Assembly: GCF_902652985.1 (NCBI RefSeq)
Contig: NC_047024.1
Location: 17,856,001-17,920,000 of the forward strand
DNA: 64,000 nt
Source of the DNA: Pecten maximus
Taxonomy: Eukaryota
Direction of reading: 5' to 3'
A program made the position numbers. Shown one piece after another: positions 15,001 through 57,000 of this stretch. Position 1 is the stretch's first letter, and each line of letters begins with the position of its first letter.

Positions 15001-18000
15001 ATTTTACTTTTAATATTAATCTATGTAAAGTTTAGCAGAAAAGTAATTAGCATGCATATCAGATATAATAGATGCACAATGGTGATAGTACTACAATATC
15101 CATTAACTTAAACTGATCACTTATTCCAAATTTACATAACAATCATTGACTTCCTGATGAAAACCTGAAGCAACCAGCTGATTATAGCTTTTCTCTTTGT
15201 CTAAATCCGTTATGTTAGAGGTTATAAATAAAAAAGAAAAGATTTTTTCTACAATTTTATTTGTATAAATAATGTCAACTACAATTTTGAGAACCCAGAA
15301 TATATCATTTGGTATAAGTGATGTTTGAAATTTGTAAAACATAAACCACTCAAAGTCAAGAAATCCCAAAATGTAACCTTTTGCTGAGCTGCTATCGGAA
15401 GCCTCACTGGGTTCATCCGGAGAGGAAGCATCAACAGATTCCACCTGTGAAACGGCCTCTCCATCGACAGATTCTGTTCCGGGGCCATCTTCAGACTCTG
15501 CCTTTTCATTGGCTGTATCGGCCTGTCTGTCACTAGACTCCGCCTCCTCCTTGTTAGAGGTAGTCACCTCCTCATCTGAATCGCCAGCCTCCGTAGTCTG
15601 GTTTGAGATACTTGTAGAATCATTTTGGTCCCCGGATGCAACGTCTCCCCCTCCTAGGTCCTCGTTTGAGGGCTGATCCTCCGTGACCACTTCCAATGGC
15701 GGTGGTGATGGGTCTCCTGGAAGTTCAATCTCTACAAAAAGAAATTTATAAAAGTATTGAATAGAAATCATACAAATGCAGTATAAACTCACATAAAATA
15801 CCAGTGTTAGTATAGTATTGTTTTTTATAGTATGACCAGTTGGAAACAAATAATAATATCAAATCACTATCAACCAAACATCCTGCAGGGTGTCAGGTAA
15901 AATCTGGACAACACAGCTATTATGCTACAAGTTTACTTCGAGTTCGAATGGAATGGGCATGGATCTACTGAGTGCCCTTAATACAACCTTCAGTCTACAT
16001 ACAAAATTGTGTGATCACTTCTGGGGTTAATTATAAATCAATCAACGCTTTACTTACATTGACTTGATCATTGCTTGCTCTTTCTGCATGAATTTTAAAC
16101 TAGATGGCAAGAAAATGTAACCATTGTAAATATTAGCCGCAATATACCGCTCGGCTAGAGAGATCTTCTCTTTAGCTTGATCGGTTGAGCATTATTCTGG
16201 TAAGCCAGGGGTTCTGGGTTTTATCCCTAGCGGAGGCAGTGATTTAAATATAATTAATCATGCTCTCTGTTTCATTGGCGCCCCATGTAGGGACCCAGGA
16301 AAAATACTCATTCTTGCCCCATAAGCATCTCTGTTACCTCTGGATAACTTGAGGATGAGTTTTCTCCTGGATTGGGAGCATGTAACCCTGGTAAATACTA
16401 GCCAGAATTATACCGCTCAGCTATTCAGATTTTCTCTTTTGCTTAATCGGTTTGATCCCTAGTGGAGGCAGCGATTTAATCTTAACTAATCATGCACTCT
16501 GTCACAGAGATGGAAACCATCTCTAAATACCCCACTGTTACACATCTCCACGCCCTGATTAAAAAATCCTGAAGTTTGTTGAATTTTGTCAATGAGTTTT
16601 GAAGGAGTTGCAAATCAAAAAGGGACCATATTGACAATGGAGGATGACAGATAGTGATCTTGACATTAACAAATTTATCAGACAGGAATGTCTGGTTATG
16701 ACAAGACATAACTGATTACAAAGTTATGGAGCAGACACAACTTTGTGTAGTTCATCAAAAGGACACAATGAGAAGCCCTTTGTTTGAAACCTTGACCTTT
16801 GAGGGACAAAGCAAATTAATCATGTGTCTCACTTTCTTATAATGATTGACATTCATCATGAAAAGTTCTGTACCTCTACTATGACTGTTTACAAAGTTAT
16901 GAAGCTGACATGAATGTGTTTCGGACAGATGCACACATGGACAAATACAGGGGTCCCATGAAAAACACTAAATTTGAGAATCTGATCTTTGAAGAACAAC
17001 TATACTATATATGCCCATGATTACATATTTTTTCAATGCCATGAATATTTCATAGCCATGATTCTTTTTCAGATCATGGCCTTCAAATAAACTCATACAA
17101 AAAATCATGACCATAAATAAAGTCATGGCCATGGAAATTGATGGTTATGAAACATGTTTTTCATTGAATTATGATGAGAACCAAAACGCAATTCATGGAA
17201 TTTTCATGGCACCATGAAAAAAAAAATTTTAATGGCACATTTTCATGGGTTCATGGTAATTTTATGGATATTTCATTGATATTTCACAGCTTTTTCATAA
17301 AACTACATTAGGTAGTGTACTATGACTGGTAACAAAGTTATGAAGTGGACACGAAAGTGTTTCGGATGGCTGGACAGACAGGGCGATCACTATTGGGTGT
17401 CGGCCAATATGTGGCAAAGCTCTAATAATCTTACAAAACTACCAACCATCTTGTAAAGTGTCACCACTGTCAAAAAAGTCTGTGGCTTCCACTGCACTCT
17501 CTGTTGACTCTAAAACATAAAAGTAATATCTGAAATGTTTAAAACTATTTTCAAATAATTCTACTTCAGAAACGTTTAATTACATTCAAAAATAATATCA
17601 TACAAGTTTAATTATTAAAAGTAACATATAATTTGAACTGATATCAAACATTTTTTAGGGCTGTTCCAAAACTACCGGTGTGCACGTGAGAGGGGACTGA
17701 TATCAAACATTTTTTAGGGCTGTTCCAAAACTACCAGTGTGGGAGGGGACTGATATCAAACATTTTTAGGGCTGTTCCAAAACTACCAGTGTGGGAGGGG
17801 AGACAGCATCTTTTTAGAGACCCCACCGCCAACAAATATGAAAACATACACTGATACGGATGTTTTAGTTACCTGATTTAGGAGAGGTAGGTATCTCTGA
17901 ACTGTCGAGGTCGTCGTTAGGCAGTAGAGCTGGGGGCTGATGACACTGGTACAGAAGTTTAAGTTTGTGTGTGAGATCTCCGTGACAGATCACACCCAAC

Positions 18001-54000: not shown

Positions 54001-57000
54001 CACCAAAAGAACGATTTTCCCTTGTCAAACATATCTCGCCCAAGAATGTCCACAGATTCCAGGGATCTTTCATTCTGGTGGTAGAGGTATATGTAACAGG
54101 AGAAGGAAGCATTTGTTTACAAAGTGCAATACATGTACAAGCTGTTGTATTTCATGACCTGATAAAAATGATATTTGTGTATTTTACCCCTGGTCGTGTC
54201 TCGTGTGAAGTACATTTCTGCTCAGTGAGGTTATGATACATTGTATATGCTTAGACCAGAACTGAGTGTCATTGTGAACGTGTAAATATTCAACAACAAC
54301 AACAACAACAACAACAGCAATGGCATATAATTGAAATACATGTAATCGTAGAGGTATACTGGACATTATGTCCTGTGTAATATTGACGATTGACGTTTTA
54401 CATGTATGTCCTTGACAGGATTGTCGGCGATGATGACGGAGGGACAATGTTTACGCCGGAGGAGTTTGAGGATTATAAAAAGAACGTTCTACCAAAGGTA
54501 AACATCTTTTACCAAATATCATTGACAACAAAACTGAAATTCGCGGGTAAACATCTTTTACCAAATAGCATTTAAAACAAAACTGAATTTCGGAAAATAC
54601 TTATTCTTAGATTCAATTTAACAAACGATTTGTTACTGACAATTCTTATTCCCGAAAGGAAAGCAAAATATAGATATCTGTATAAATATACCTTAACCAT
54701 TGTGTTGATGTCTGCACACTTTCAACAAGTTGCCATGTTGTAGTTGTAGATTATGTGACGGATATTTATTACAAAGTTAAAACAAGTACAGTATAATGAA
54801 ACAAAAATGCATATTTATTCATGTTCATATTTGCCCAATATTATCAATTTTGAGTCTGAAGTATACCTTCGTTATTATGTCAGTTTTCTTTGCTGTTTAA
54901 GTGTTAAGTGTTCTGTAGATATATATATCACTTGCTGTGATATTTTTTTTAGTTTTTATATAACAAGTTTCTATAACATGTCCACAGCGGATGAAGAACC
55001 GTCTGTACACAAGCTGGTCGTCCCCAACAGGAATGGACTGTAAACTTATTGGACCGGAGACGCCATGTTTCTGCAAACACAGGTAAGTCAACCCCAACAT
55101 AGATTGACGTATTCTTCGCAAAGGATATGCAGTGTAGTGGGCGTTAGATAATGCTATCAATAGTTCTGTGTATTTTGCATATTAAATCTGCTTAGATAGT
55201 GGAGATGTTTTCTGTTCAATAAGATTAATTAAAAATGAGATAATTATGGCTGGTATGATGCGTGGATACGTGTAATGTAATATGTATTGATTATCAAGAC
55301 ATAAAATCTTCGTTATTAATCATAAAACTGTTGGATTACAGGAAACACACTTATTAAGAACCACTCAAATTTTAAAGCAAACCAAATTAAAACGGAATGA
55401 CGAAATCGTGCACCATCAAAAGGGCTATACAAACTGTATTTAGTAAAATGGGATTTCTTAGTCCAGTTTTGGCCAAATTCCAAATTAAGTGCAGATCAAT
55501 TTCTACTAGCATGTACCTTTTATAGGTTATTTATACAATCATTGATAAATTCATACGCAATCGGTTATTTTGCCGGTGATAACAAAATCCCTATTGAGCA
55601 TATTCTGAAAGTAATTCTACAGATTTATTCCATAAACTAAACTCGTAATTGTGTAGATATTGCATGTTGATGATGTAACGACAGACCCATCATTAATATT
55701 GGATTATTTCTATTCATTCCCTTGTGTCAGAAACGTCGATCATTCCTAGCGATGAATACTAATAATCTCTGACGCCAGGGGATGACACCAAACTAATAAC
55801 TGATACAAATGTCCGACATTTGTTTACAAATGTAAACAGCATTGATTACATAAACGATTTCGTGTCATTTTACAGGTATAAGCAACACAAGACGGATTTC
55901 GATGCAATTCCCACAGACCGGCCTATTTTGTTGCCATGCCGACAGAAGGGATGCAAGTGCGCCACCTACCATTACATACCTATGAACGGAAGTCAGCCAA
56001 TCAGGTGCAGCACGTGCAAACACACTGCAGATGAACACTCGGAGGAACAGCCACGGCTCGTGTGCAAACGCAGTAAGATACACTGTCATAGTTAGACAAG
56101 TAATGCTTTAAATAGTCTCTTGTATTCAAGTAACTTAGTTGATAGTCCTATGTGTTCTTGTAATCAGTGTGCTGAAACTACCGAGCATTTTCCTCCTCAA
56201 TTGTCTCAATTACTAGCAGCTAAGAATTCAATGTTTTGGGAGCCTTCCTCCTAATTTTAATATTAATACTTTACTATATGGTAGTCTAGACATGCCAGTA
56301 CAGTACAATGAAATTATTTTAGATTGTGTCCAAAACTTTATAAGCCTATATGCTTTTAACAGTTAAGTATCCTTCATCTATGATCTATGATGTCAATTTA
56401 GAATTGTATCTGTAGTATATTTTGTATAAGTGCTACTTCCCACAACAGGTGTAGCCCTGTGGCTCTATTGTCGTACATTGTATCATGCAAACAGCTAGCT
56501 GTTTTTACACTAGGGAACGATAGGGGAAACCCAAACCGAGTCTAGGAATATCAGAAAAAAGGCCCCGTGTTAAACTTTTATCAGAAAAGGCCTTATGATA
56601 AACCTTTGATAAGAAAAAGGCCTTATATTCAAGTTTTAATCAAAAAAAGGAATTATGCTAAACTTTTAATCAGAAAAAAACCCTTTTACTAGACTATTAA
56701 TCACAAGAGTCACAAACATTAGGATATTTAGAGATTTTAATGCAACATCATCAGTTTATTAAAATCCAGTACCATTTCCAATAGAACTGAGAACTGAGGC
56801 ACATGCAATTTATACTAAATTAACGCAGTTAAAGAGGCTTACCCGTAGACGGACCGGTAAACGGCACATCTCCGATCACTAAATAAACTTCAGTACACGT
56901 TTCTATGTGACAAAATTAGAGGCTTTCCGACTTTATTTCTTGAAAACAATTACAGAATATGTATTTAAAAGACGTTTTAAAACTCAACCTGAGAGGGAAA

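What the first reader, a model, noticed from the sequence alone, without database searches (positions are those of the whole stretch)
17636..54597. Recurrent tandem amplification anchored on exon/intron junctions
Seen: independent tandem repeats include or abut splice sites at the TBC1D9 exon-5 donor (37 bp), exon-12 donor (51 bp), exon-13 donor (about 21 bp, 28419-28465), exon-15 acceptor (84-94 bp), exon-15 donor side (21 bp) and exon-26 donor side (about 52 bp), and at the FAM221A exon-2 donor (50 bp). In each junction-spanning case, the copy belonging to the functional exon is intact and the extra copies extend into the intron. Inference: a mutational process (or tolerance) that seeds tandem repeats at junctions, expanding introns and supplying new alternative splice sites. 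Survivor bias could also contribute.
Basis: partly seen in the sequence, partly recalled or inferred. Interest (0 to 1): 0.68.

Follow-up and report, generated by a model that had tools for sequence, protein, structure and literature searches.

The report
Tandem repeats spanning splice junctions
Several short tandem duplications in two neighbouring invertebrate-type genes do begin in an exon and copy its splice site into the intron; this kind of structure is already known from human genes such as F7, and one window cannot show that it is commoner here than chance allows.

Summary
The window holds a 30-exon TBC1D8/9-like gene on the minus strand (13077-38735) and a FAM221-like gene on the plus strand. 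Pfam, searched exon by exon, supports both.

- Four contain a splice junction: E5 donor (37 bp x24), E12 donor (51 bp x2 plus diverged copies), E15 acceptor (84/94 bp, 3 copies) and FAM221 e2 donor (49 bp x2).
- One starts at intron position +3 (E13 donor).
- Two are purely intronic, 20 and 71 nt from a donor.

Intron 5 carries 19 decoy donors whose 9-mer is identical to the authentic one.

Under a null that places one repeat unit at random, 4 of 13 arrays span a junction against 1.23 expected (P=0.027). With +-3 nt tolerance it is 5 of 13 (P=0.007). With every small array in the TBC gene it is 3 of 33 (P=0.20). The window was chosen post hoc.

The exonic overhang varies (35, 32, about 58, 1 and -2 nt), so nothing is anchored on the splice site itself.

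Best reading: ordinary minisatellite growth in a repeat-prone, exon-dense gene, tolerated because the outermost site stays in use, as in human F7 IVS7 (PMC1557585). A junction-favouring process is neither shown nor excluded.

The parts
13077..38735 (-). TBC1D8/9-like gene (GRAM-GRAM-RabGAP/TBC-EF-hand), 30-exon model from the ATG at 38735 to the stop at 13077
   Evidence: Stop-to-stop ORFs and codon prints. Exon enumeration with phases. All 29 introns are GT-AG. Pfam exon by exon: GRAM in E7 at 6e-12 and E12 at 1e-8; RabGAP-TBC in E18, E19 and E20 at colinear profile positions 59-87, 89-131 and 140-176; a weak EF-hand in E26. The E27 donor is uncertain, and there is a 1-nt phase mismatch between E10 and E11.
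34714..35603 (-). 37-bp x24 minisatellite. Its first unit is the last 31-35 nt of exon 5 (35655-35569) plus the donor GTAAGT. It makes up 855 of the 1421 nt of intron 5.
   Evidence: TRF score 1458 with 92% matches. Sequence. Copy table: 20 of 24 copies, the authentic one included, carry ATG|GTAAGT. Lag map. Intron share.
29027..29127 (-). 51-bp x2 duplication consisting of the last 32 nt of exon 12 (29228-29096) plus 19 intron nt. Copy 2 carries an identical donor 9-mer 51 nt downstream.
28800..28931 (-). Diverged copies 3, 4 and a partial copy 5 of the same exon-12-donor unit, deeper in intron 12. An insert of about 95 nt ending in A15 separates them from copy 2.
   Evidence: TRF 28807-28929, 52 bp x2.3. 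Sequence. Alignment A2.
28422..28463 (-). 21-bp x2 duplication starting at position +3 of intron 13 (donor G at 28465). It abuts the junction and does not contain it.
27447..27717 (-). Three copies (A, B, C) of the exon-15 acceptor region. The first exon-like bases are at 27682, 27588 and 27504, and C is the copy continuous with exon 15 (27504-27316).
   Evidence: TRF 27487-27663, 84 bp x2.1. Sequence. Alignment A1, 88% mean column identity. Acceptor scores are 7.8, 6.6 and 8.0; A adds 178 nt and hits a stop, B adds 84 nt and stays open.
27186..27295 (-). 21-bp x5.2 array inside intron 15, 20 nt from the exon-15 donor. It is not derived from exon sequence.
   Evidence: In one search it matched only itself.
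17637..17801 (-). 55-59-bp x3 array inside intron 26, 71 nt from the exon-26 donor. It is not derived from exon sequence.
54419..54592 (+). FAM221-like exon 2 (54419-54497) followed by a 49-bp x2 duplication (54497-54592) that starts at the last exon base and repeats the donor 49 nt downstream.
   Evidence: Sequence. Lag map. Donor scores are 6.6 for the authentic site and 6.0 for the decoy. FAM221 Pfam hits in later exons of the same strand at 1e-22 and 1e-26.

Best explanation
These are ordinary minisatellite-type tandem duplications, made by slippage or unequal exchange between short direct homologies and then amplified by further unequal exchange. They arose in a genome region that makes such arrays very readily. 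The TBC1D8/9-like gene packs 58 splice junctions into about 24 kb, so a 20-90-bp duplication often falls across one.

A duplication across a donor leaves the first copy continuous with the exon and pushes the other copies, each with its own donor, into the intron. A duplication across an acceptor does the mirror image. The gene survives because the splice site continuous with the exon stays in use, and the inner copies are silent or nonsense-producing decoys.

Shown here: the anatomy, the identity of decoy and authentic sites, and the frame consequences. Inferred: the mode of origin, and that the outer site is the one used.
For: - Arrays of period >=15 cover about 11 kb of the 64 kb. That figure is my sum of the rows. 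It includes a 6.2-kb intergenic 45-bp array and arrays deep in introns that have no similarity to exon junctions.
- The 37-bp array has the usual minisatellite make-up. Its variation is concentrated in 5 columns, and a few unit subtypes recur along the array.
- Repeat boundaries relative to the splice site are scattered: 35, 32, about 58, 1 and -2 nt of exon. That is what random segments overlapping a junction would give.
- Short matches sit at the unit borders, for example the 4-6 nt before the E5 unit and the G(G)T at E13 and FAM221 e2.
- About 1 junction-spanning array is expected by chance in the TBC gene alone (0.99 of 10), so some are unavoidable.
- There is a precedent for tolerance. 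Human F7 IVS7 has a 37-bp VNTR whose first element spans the exon 7 boundary, and only the most upstream of the identical donors is used. The same paper lists IFI 6-16, CBS, LAMIN B2 and PDGF as further cases (PMC1557585; abstract and Introduction read).
- All decoy donor choices would be harmful. Offsets are multiples of 37, and an in-frame stop lies 38 nt into intron 5, 15 nt into intron 12 and 12 nt into intron 13. This fits decoys that are not normally used.
Against: - The count of junction-spanning arrays exceeds the unit-level expectation: 4 of 13 against 1.23 (P=0.027), or 5 of 13 against 1.37 with +-3 nt tolerance (P=0.007).
- Two repeat borders fall within 3 nt of a donor (E13 and FAM221 e2).
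- 20 of 23 intronic copies keep a GTAAGT donor and 1 more reads GTAGGT, so there is no sign of decay of the decoys. That could mean the array is young, the decoys are neutral, or they are being retained.
- For the acceptor array the decoys lie upstream of the copy I call authentic and score similarly (7.8 and 6.6 against 8.0). 'The outer site wins' is therefore less obviously expected there than for donors.
- No transcript data were available.
Confidence: 0.6

Rival explanations
1. One reading: this genome has a mutational or selective bias that makes or keeps tandem repeats specifically at exon/intron junctions. The cause might be breaks or repair tied to co-transcriptional splicing or exon-positioned nucleosomes, or selection for extra U1-binding sites next to a donor.
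For: - Nominal 3- to 4-fold excess: 4 of 13 against 1.23 expected (P=0.027), and 5 of 13 against 1.37 with +-3 nt tolerance (P=0.007).
- Two independent genes in one window show it.
- The three highest-scoring arrays of the TBC gene (TRF scores 1458, 319, 317) include two junction arrays.
- Decoy donors are almost all intact.
Against: - The window was flagged because of this pattern, so the P values are post hoc.
- With all arrays of period >=7 the excess is 3 of 33 against 1.58 expected (P=0.20).
- The exonic overhangs differ widely (35, 32, about 58, 1, -2 nt), so there is no fixed anchor.
- The donor columns of the 37-bp array are not clearly more conserved than the others. By my reading of the column table, 3 of 9 donor columns vary against 6 of 28 others.
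- My literature searches found no report of such an enrichment.
Confidence: 0.17
2. Some of the repeated copies are functional alternative splice sites or coding sequence. In particular, exon 15 may start at acceptor B and add 28 residues to the variable linker between the second GRAM domain and the TBC domain.
For: The reading frame stays open from 27791 through copies B and C. Acceptor B adds 84 nt in frame without a stop and scores 6.6 against 8.0 for C.
Against: - The added peptide would be translated partly from a pyrimidine-tract-like stretch and is hydrophobic, whereas its surroundings are acidic and serine-rich.
- Acceptor A adds 178 nt and hits a stop.
- All donor decoys give frameshifts or stops.
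- An open 84-nt unit in one frame is not rare by chance.
Confidence: 0.1
3. Assembly artefact: the arrays, or their copy numbers, are errors of a long-read assembly.
For: A 1-nt phase mismatch at an A6 run between E10 and E11 suggests homopolymer errors in this assembly. Copy numbers of long arrays are often mis-assembled, which is general knowledge.
Against: - Copies differ from each other by ordered substitutions and indels rather than being identical.
- The exon copy of the 37-bp unit has a private synonymous difference.
- Five separate loci show the same architecture.
Confidence: 0.05

Closest known systems
Human F7 intron 7 37-bp VNTR, and the other minisatellites listed with it whose first monomer spans an exon-intron boundary: IFI 6-16, CBS IVS13, LAMIN B2, PDGF (Borensztajn et al. 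2006, PMC1557585; abstract and Introduction read)
   Same: A head-to-tail minisatellite whose first unit holds the end of an exon plus the donor, so identical donor sequences recur down the intron. By coincidence the unit of the E5 array here is also 37 bp. The decoy number (19 identical plus 1 near-identical) is close to the 25 pseudo-sites quoted for IFI 6-16.
   Different: - In F7 only 4 exon nt lie in the unit. Here 31-35 (E5), 32 (E12) or 1 (FAM221 e2) do.
- Here three or four such structures sit in one gene and one in its neighbour, and one of them is at an acceptor, which that paper does not describe.
- Use of only the upstream donor was shown by experiment for F7. It is untested here, as is copy-number polymorphism.
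- The organism here is an invertebrate-type genome, not a mammal.
Tandem arrays as a source of alternatively spliced human introns (Zhuo, Madden, Elela and Chabot 2007, PNAS)
   Same: As I recall it, tandem repeats that carry splice sites in each unit give rise to introns and alternative splice choices.
   Different: I saw this paper only as entries in two reference lists, and its text is not held. The comparison therefore rests on recall. Here no use of the repeated sites is shown, and nearly all would be non-productive.
Intron gain or intron sliding by tandem duplication of a segment with a (proto-)splice site: Lehmann et al. 2010, PMC2891723 (passages read); Hellsten et al. 2011, PMC3265369 (search listing and start of abstract only)
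   Same: A short genomic tandem duplication that contains splice signals changes exon-intron structure without destroying the gene.
   Different: Those cases duplicate coding sequence and create a new intron or shift an old one. Here the duplications span existing junctions and only lengthen existing introns. No new intron position is implied.

Membership tests
Minisatellite whose first monomer spans an exon-intron boundary (F7 IVS7 type, PMC1557585) | Head-to-tail array of a 10-100-bp unit inside an intron | tested here: met
   TRF: 37 bp x24.1, 51 bp x2.0 with 2.3 further diverged copies, and 49 bp x2.0.
Minisatellite whose first monomer spans an exon-intron boundary (F7 IVS7 type, PMC1557585) | The first unit contains the last bases of the exon and the donor site | tested here: met
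   E5 has 31-35 exon nt, E12 has 32 and FAM221 e2 has 1. This is not met for E13, which starts at +3, nor for the arrays at 27186 and 17637.
Minisatellite whose first monomer spans an exon-intron boundary (F7 IVS7 type, PMC1557585) | The authentic donor is followed by pseudo-sites of identical sequence | tested here: met
   Intron 5 has 19 decoys with the same 9-mer as the authentic donor. Intron 12 has one identical decoy at +51 nt. The FAM221 e2 decoy differs at 2 of the 3 exonic positions.
Minisatellite whose first monomer spans an exon-intron boundary (F7 IVS7 type, PMC1557585) | Only the most upstream donor is used in vivo | not testable with these tools
   No transcript data are available for this organism. 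The only indirect point is that every decoy donor choice gives a frameshift or a stop.
Minisatellite whose first monomer spans an exon-intron boundary (F7 IVS7 type, PMC1557585) | Copy number is polymorphic (VNTR) | not testable with these tools
   There is a single assembly and no population data.
   4 of 13 against 1.23 expected (P=0.027). 5 of 13 with +-3 nt tolerance (P=0.007). 3 of 33 against 1.58 with all small arrays in the TBC gene (P=0.20). All of this is in a window chosen post hoc.
   The exonic overhangs are 35, 32, about 58, 1 and -2 nt.
   Pfam exon by exon: GRAM in E7 and E12, RabGAP-TBC in E18-E20 and a weak EF-hand in E26.
   e4 at 9.6e-23 covers profile positions 62-123, and e5 at 1.4e-26 covers positions 126-191. 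A versus B was not tested.

The most novel reading that the evidence does not exclude
In this lineage, tandem duplications arise or persist preferentially across splice junctions. A possible cause is that strings of U1-binding donor copies next to a real donor are favoured, or that breaks cluster at exon edges during co-transcriptional splicing. Minisatellite growth at junctions would then be a regular route of intron expansion and a standing supply of alternative splice sites.
Probability: 0.12. Interest if true: 0.65.

Novelty: new member of a known kind. Interest (0 to 1): 0.33.

Why it matters
If the excess were real genome-wide, it would point to a link between splicing signals and the birth or retention of minisatellites. 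It would also point to a cheap route of intron growth in repeat-rich invertebrate genomes.

Even as ordinary cases, these loci are natural test pieces for how a spliceosome chooses among identical sites. One is a 24-copy array with 20 identical donor 9-mers. Another is a triplicated acceptor of which one copy is frame-preserving.

For annotation, such arrays are a trap. Gene finders can pick a decoy site and report a truncated or frameshifted product.

Tried and rejected
- **Other arrays as degraded exon-junction copies.** I asked whether the other arrays of the window derive from exon junctions, using a local blastn of 14 array units against all modelled exons with 60-nt flanks. Only self-matches came back, plus one 12-nt match between the 57383 array and the FAM221 e2 donor (E=0.026). 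I treat that match as chance.
- **Junction arrays as part of dispersed elements.** A self-blast of the window gave 5 dispersed matches, and none touches a junction array. Only the 16-bp array at 21751 lies in a dispersed repeat. Dropping it changes the result little (P=0.058).
- **The repeat finder on the whole window.** The 45-bp satellite swamped the output, and it added only one inverted pair.
- **RNA genes.** Rfam gave 0 matches and ARAGORN gave 0 genes.
- **Literature on genome-wide enrichment of tandem repeats at junctions.**
  - One search returned 1 paper, the F7 study.
  - One search found 14 papers with the terms and listed 13. None is on this by title or start of abstract. Passages read from PMC10078293 concern repeats that modulate splicing, not their placement.
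  - One search returned 1 unrelated paper.
  - Supplements were not opened.
- **Comparison with orthologous introns and a genome-wide test.** Neither was possible.
- **FAM221-like exon 1.** I did not find it. Whether the 43-bp array at 53056-53360 lies in that gene therefore stayed open, and I left that array out of the counts.
- **E27 donor and the stretch between E27 and E28.** These are uncertain.

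
Full report
**What the window is.** It is 64 kb with no N and 30-40% G+C. I do not take it for human. The TBC gene spans only 25.7 kb with a median intron of 546 nt, and minisatellites cover about 11 kb of the window (my sum of the rows with period >=15). It looks like an invertebrate genome. A mollusc is my guess, from a recalled resemblance of a dispersed repeat, and I did not test it.

**Gene models.** On the minus strand a 30-exon model runs from the ATG at 38735 to the stop at 13077.
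- I built it from stop-to-stop ORFs, codon prints and phase-checked enumeration of AG...GT intervals. My recollection of the human protein guided the choice of exons.
- All 29 introns are GT-AG with pyrimidine-rich acceptors.
- Only exon lengths were summed.
- Pfam finds GRAM in E7 (6e-12) and E12 (1e-8). It finds RabGAP-TBC in E18, E19 and E20 at colinear profile positions, and a weak EF-hand in E26. This is the TBC1D8/9 architecture. The paralogue was not resolved.
- On the plus strand a FAM221-like gene has e2 at 54419-54497 and later exons with PF14753 hits at 1e-22 and 1e-26. Its first exon was not found.
- Weak points of the TBC model are the E27 donor and a 1-nt phase mismatch between E10 and E11 at an A6 run. 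The summed coding length of 3865 nt is 3n+1, which fits that mismatch.

**The observation.** All seven arrays are real TRF arrays.

Four contain a junction:
1. *E5 donor.* 24 units of 37 bp lie at 34714-35603. The first unit is the last 31 nt of exon 5 plus GTAAGT, and the match extends 35 nt into the exon. Twenty of the 24 units, the authentic one included, read ATG|GTAAGT. One reads GTG|GTAAGT, one GTAGGT, one GAAAGT, and the last unit is degenerate.
2. *E12 donor.* Two units of 51 bp, each made of 32 exon nt plus 19 intron nt. Copy 2 has the identical donor 9-mer 51 nt downstream. The 52-bp array at 28807-28929 is copies 3 to 5 of the same unit. Those copies are diverged and have damaged donors, and an insert of about 95 nt ending in A15 separates them from copy 2.
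3. *E15 acceptor.* There are three copies, A, B and C. Each holds about 35 nt of intron end, the AG, and 50-58 nt of exon start. Their first exon-like bases are at 27682, 27588 and 27504.
4. *FAM221 e2 donor.* Two units of 49 bp that start at the last exon base.

One array abuts a junction. The 21-bp duplication at the E13 donor starts at intron position +3.

Two arrays are merely intronic, 20 and 71 nt from a donor. In this gene 5% and 19% of intronic positions lie that close to an exon.

That the exon's copy is intact and the extras lie in the intron follows from the geometry of any tandem duplication across a junction.

**Consequences in sequence.**
- Junction-derived copies make up 855 of 1421 nt of intron 5, 213 of 360 nt of intron 14 and 182 of 510 nt of intron 12.
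- I scored splice sites with a weight matrix built from this gene's other sites. Decoys score like the authentic sites:
  - Intron 5 donors: 9.7 against 9.7.
  - Intron 12 donors: 6.3 against 6.3.
  - FAM221 e2 donors: 6.0 against 6.6.
  - Exon 15 acceptors: 7.8 (A) and 6.6 (B) against 8.0 (C).
- Every decoy donor would be non-productive. Offsets in intron 5 are multiples of 37, and the in-frame ones lie beyond an in-frame stop 38 nt into the intron. In-frame stops also lie 15 nt into intron 12 and 12 nt into intron 13. The FAM221 decoy is 49 nt away.
- Acceptor A adds 178 nt and meets a stop. Acceptor B adds 84 nt and stays open.

**Is it more than chance?** An array that grew from a duplication inside an intron can never come to overlap a junction. 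The fair null therefore places one unit, not the whole array, at random in the gene after every array has been collapsed to one copy. Placements wholly inside an exon are excluded.
- TBC gene: 10 independent arrays (period >=15, score >=50, with the 28807 array merged into its parent at 29027) give 0.99 expected and 3 observed (P=0.066). With +-3 nt tolerance, 1.10 are expected and 4 observed (P=0.016).
- Adding the FAM221-like gene (3 arrays, 8 modelled junctions): 4 of 13 against 1.23 (P=0.027), and 5 of 13 against 1.37 with tolerance (P=0.007).
- Counting every TRF array of period >=7 in the TBC gene: 3 of 33 against 1.58 (P=0.20).
- Left out of these counts:
  - mono- and dinucleotide runs;
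  - the A-rich low-complexity rows at 58446-58535;
  - the array at 53056-53360, whose gene membership is unknown;
  - all intergenic arrays.
- The window was selected because of this pattern, so these P values overstate the evidence. I cannot run the genome-wide test from one window.

**What argues against a junction-specific mechanism.**
- The repeat borders are not anchored. The exonic overhang is 35, 32, about 58, 1 and -2 nt.
- The other arrays of the window are unrelated to exon junctions.
- The largest array, 45 bp x138, is intergenic.
- The 37-bp array looks like an ordinary minisatellite. Its variation sits in five columns, and a few unit subtypes recur along it.
- The donor columns are not clearly more conserved than the rest. 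By my reading of the column table, 3 of 9 donor columns vary against 6 of 28 others.

**What is known.**
- Borensztajn et al. 2006 (PMC1557585; abstract and Introduction read) describe this kind of structure. In several human genes a minisatellite has its first monomer spanning an exon-intron boundary, so the donor sequence recurs in the intron.
- Their examples are F7 IVS7 (37 bp, 5-9 repeats, 4 exon nt in the unit), IFI 6-16 (25 pseudo-sites), CBS IVS13, LAMIN B2 and PDGF.
- Tandem duplication as a source of new or shifted introns is discussed by Lehmann et al. 2010 (PMC2891723; passages read).
- I saw Hellsten et al. 2011 (PMC3265369) only in a search listing.
- I saw Zhuo et al. 2007 only in reference lists, and its text is not held.
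- I found no paper reporting an enrichment of tandem repeats at junctions.

**Verdict.** The best explanation is ordinary minisatellite formation in a repeat-prone, junction-dense gene, tolerated because the splice site continuous with the exon stays in use (confidence 0.6). What is unusual is the number of such structures in one gene and the triplicated acceptor. That makes the locus a good natural test piece for splice-site choice, but not a new kind of element.

**Left unchecked.**
- Transcripts.
- Copy-number polymorphism.
- Orthologous introns.
- The genome-wide background.
- The paralogue identity of both genes.

Noticed in passing
window 30155-30691 (-): There is a one-nucleotide phase mismatch between exon 10 (ends 30638) and exon 11 (starts 30227 with an A6 run) of the TBC1D8/9-like gene. 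The summed coding length is 3n+1. This is either a homopolymer error of the assembly or a real frameshift.
   Followed up: partly
window about 28930-29026 (-): An insert of about 95 nt ending in A15 splits the exon-12-donor repeat into copies 1-2 and copies 3-5. It looks like a small retroposed insertion into the array.
   Followed up: no
window 27478-27495 (-): A 9-nt in-frame tandem duplication lies inside exon 15. It is also present in acceptor copy A but absent from copy B, which bears on the order of the duplication events.
   Followed up: partly
window 27312-27791 (-): A 159-codon frame stays open through acceptor copies B and C, so decoy acceptor B (27588) would add 28 residues in frame.
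   Followed up: partly
window 35597 (-), exon 5: The exon copy of the 37-bp unit differs from all 23 intronic copies at one synonymous Leu position (CTA against CTG). The intronic copies have been homogenised apart from the exon copy, or the exon changed afterwards.
   Followed up: no
window 2206-8418: A 6.2-kb satellite of 45-bp units (138 copies, 94% matches) has an interruption near 3000. It is intergenic, between a VWA-domain ORF (608-1150, minus strand) and the 3' end of the TBC gene.
   Followed up: partly
window 57383-57976 (+): A 36-bp x16.5 array in a FAM221-like intron contains a donor-like 12-mer identical to the one at the e2 donor (local blastn E=0.026). This is probably chance.
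   Followed up: partly
window 18341-18553 and 22250-22553; 21768-21809 and 48631-48672: Dispersed repeats. An element of about 210-300 nt lies in introns 25 and 21 at 81-87% identity. A 42-nt inverted match includes the 16-bp array at 21751.
   Followed up: no
window 42045-47666 (+): ORFs with a weak PAN domain (42045-42488, 8e-4) and a C-type lectin domain (47412-47666, 3e-7) indicate another gene between the two studied. It holds no array of period >=15.
   Followed up: no
window 18797-18826 (-): A small 7/14-bp repeat (TRF scores 33 and 46) lies in the pyrimidine tract a few nt upstream of the exon 25 acceptor (exon starts at 18792). It was below the score threshold used for the main counts.
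   Followed up: no
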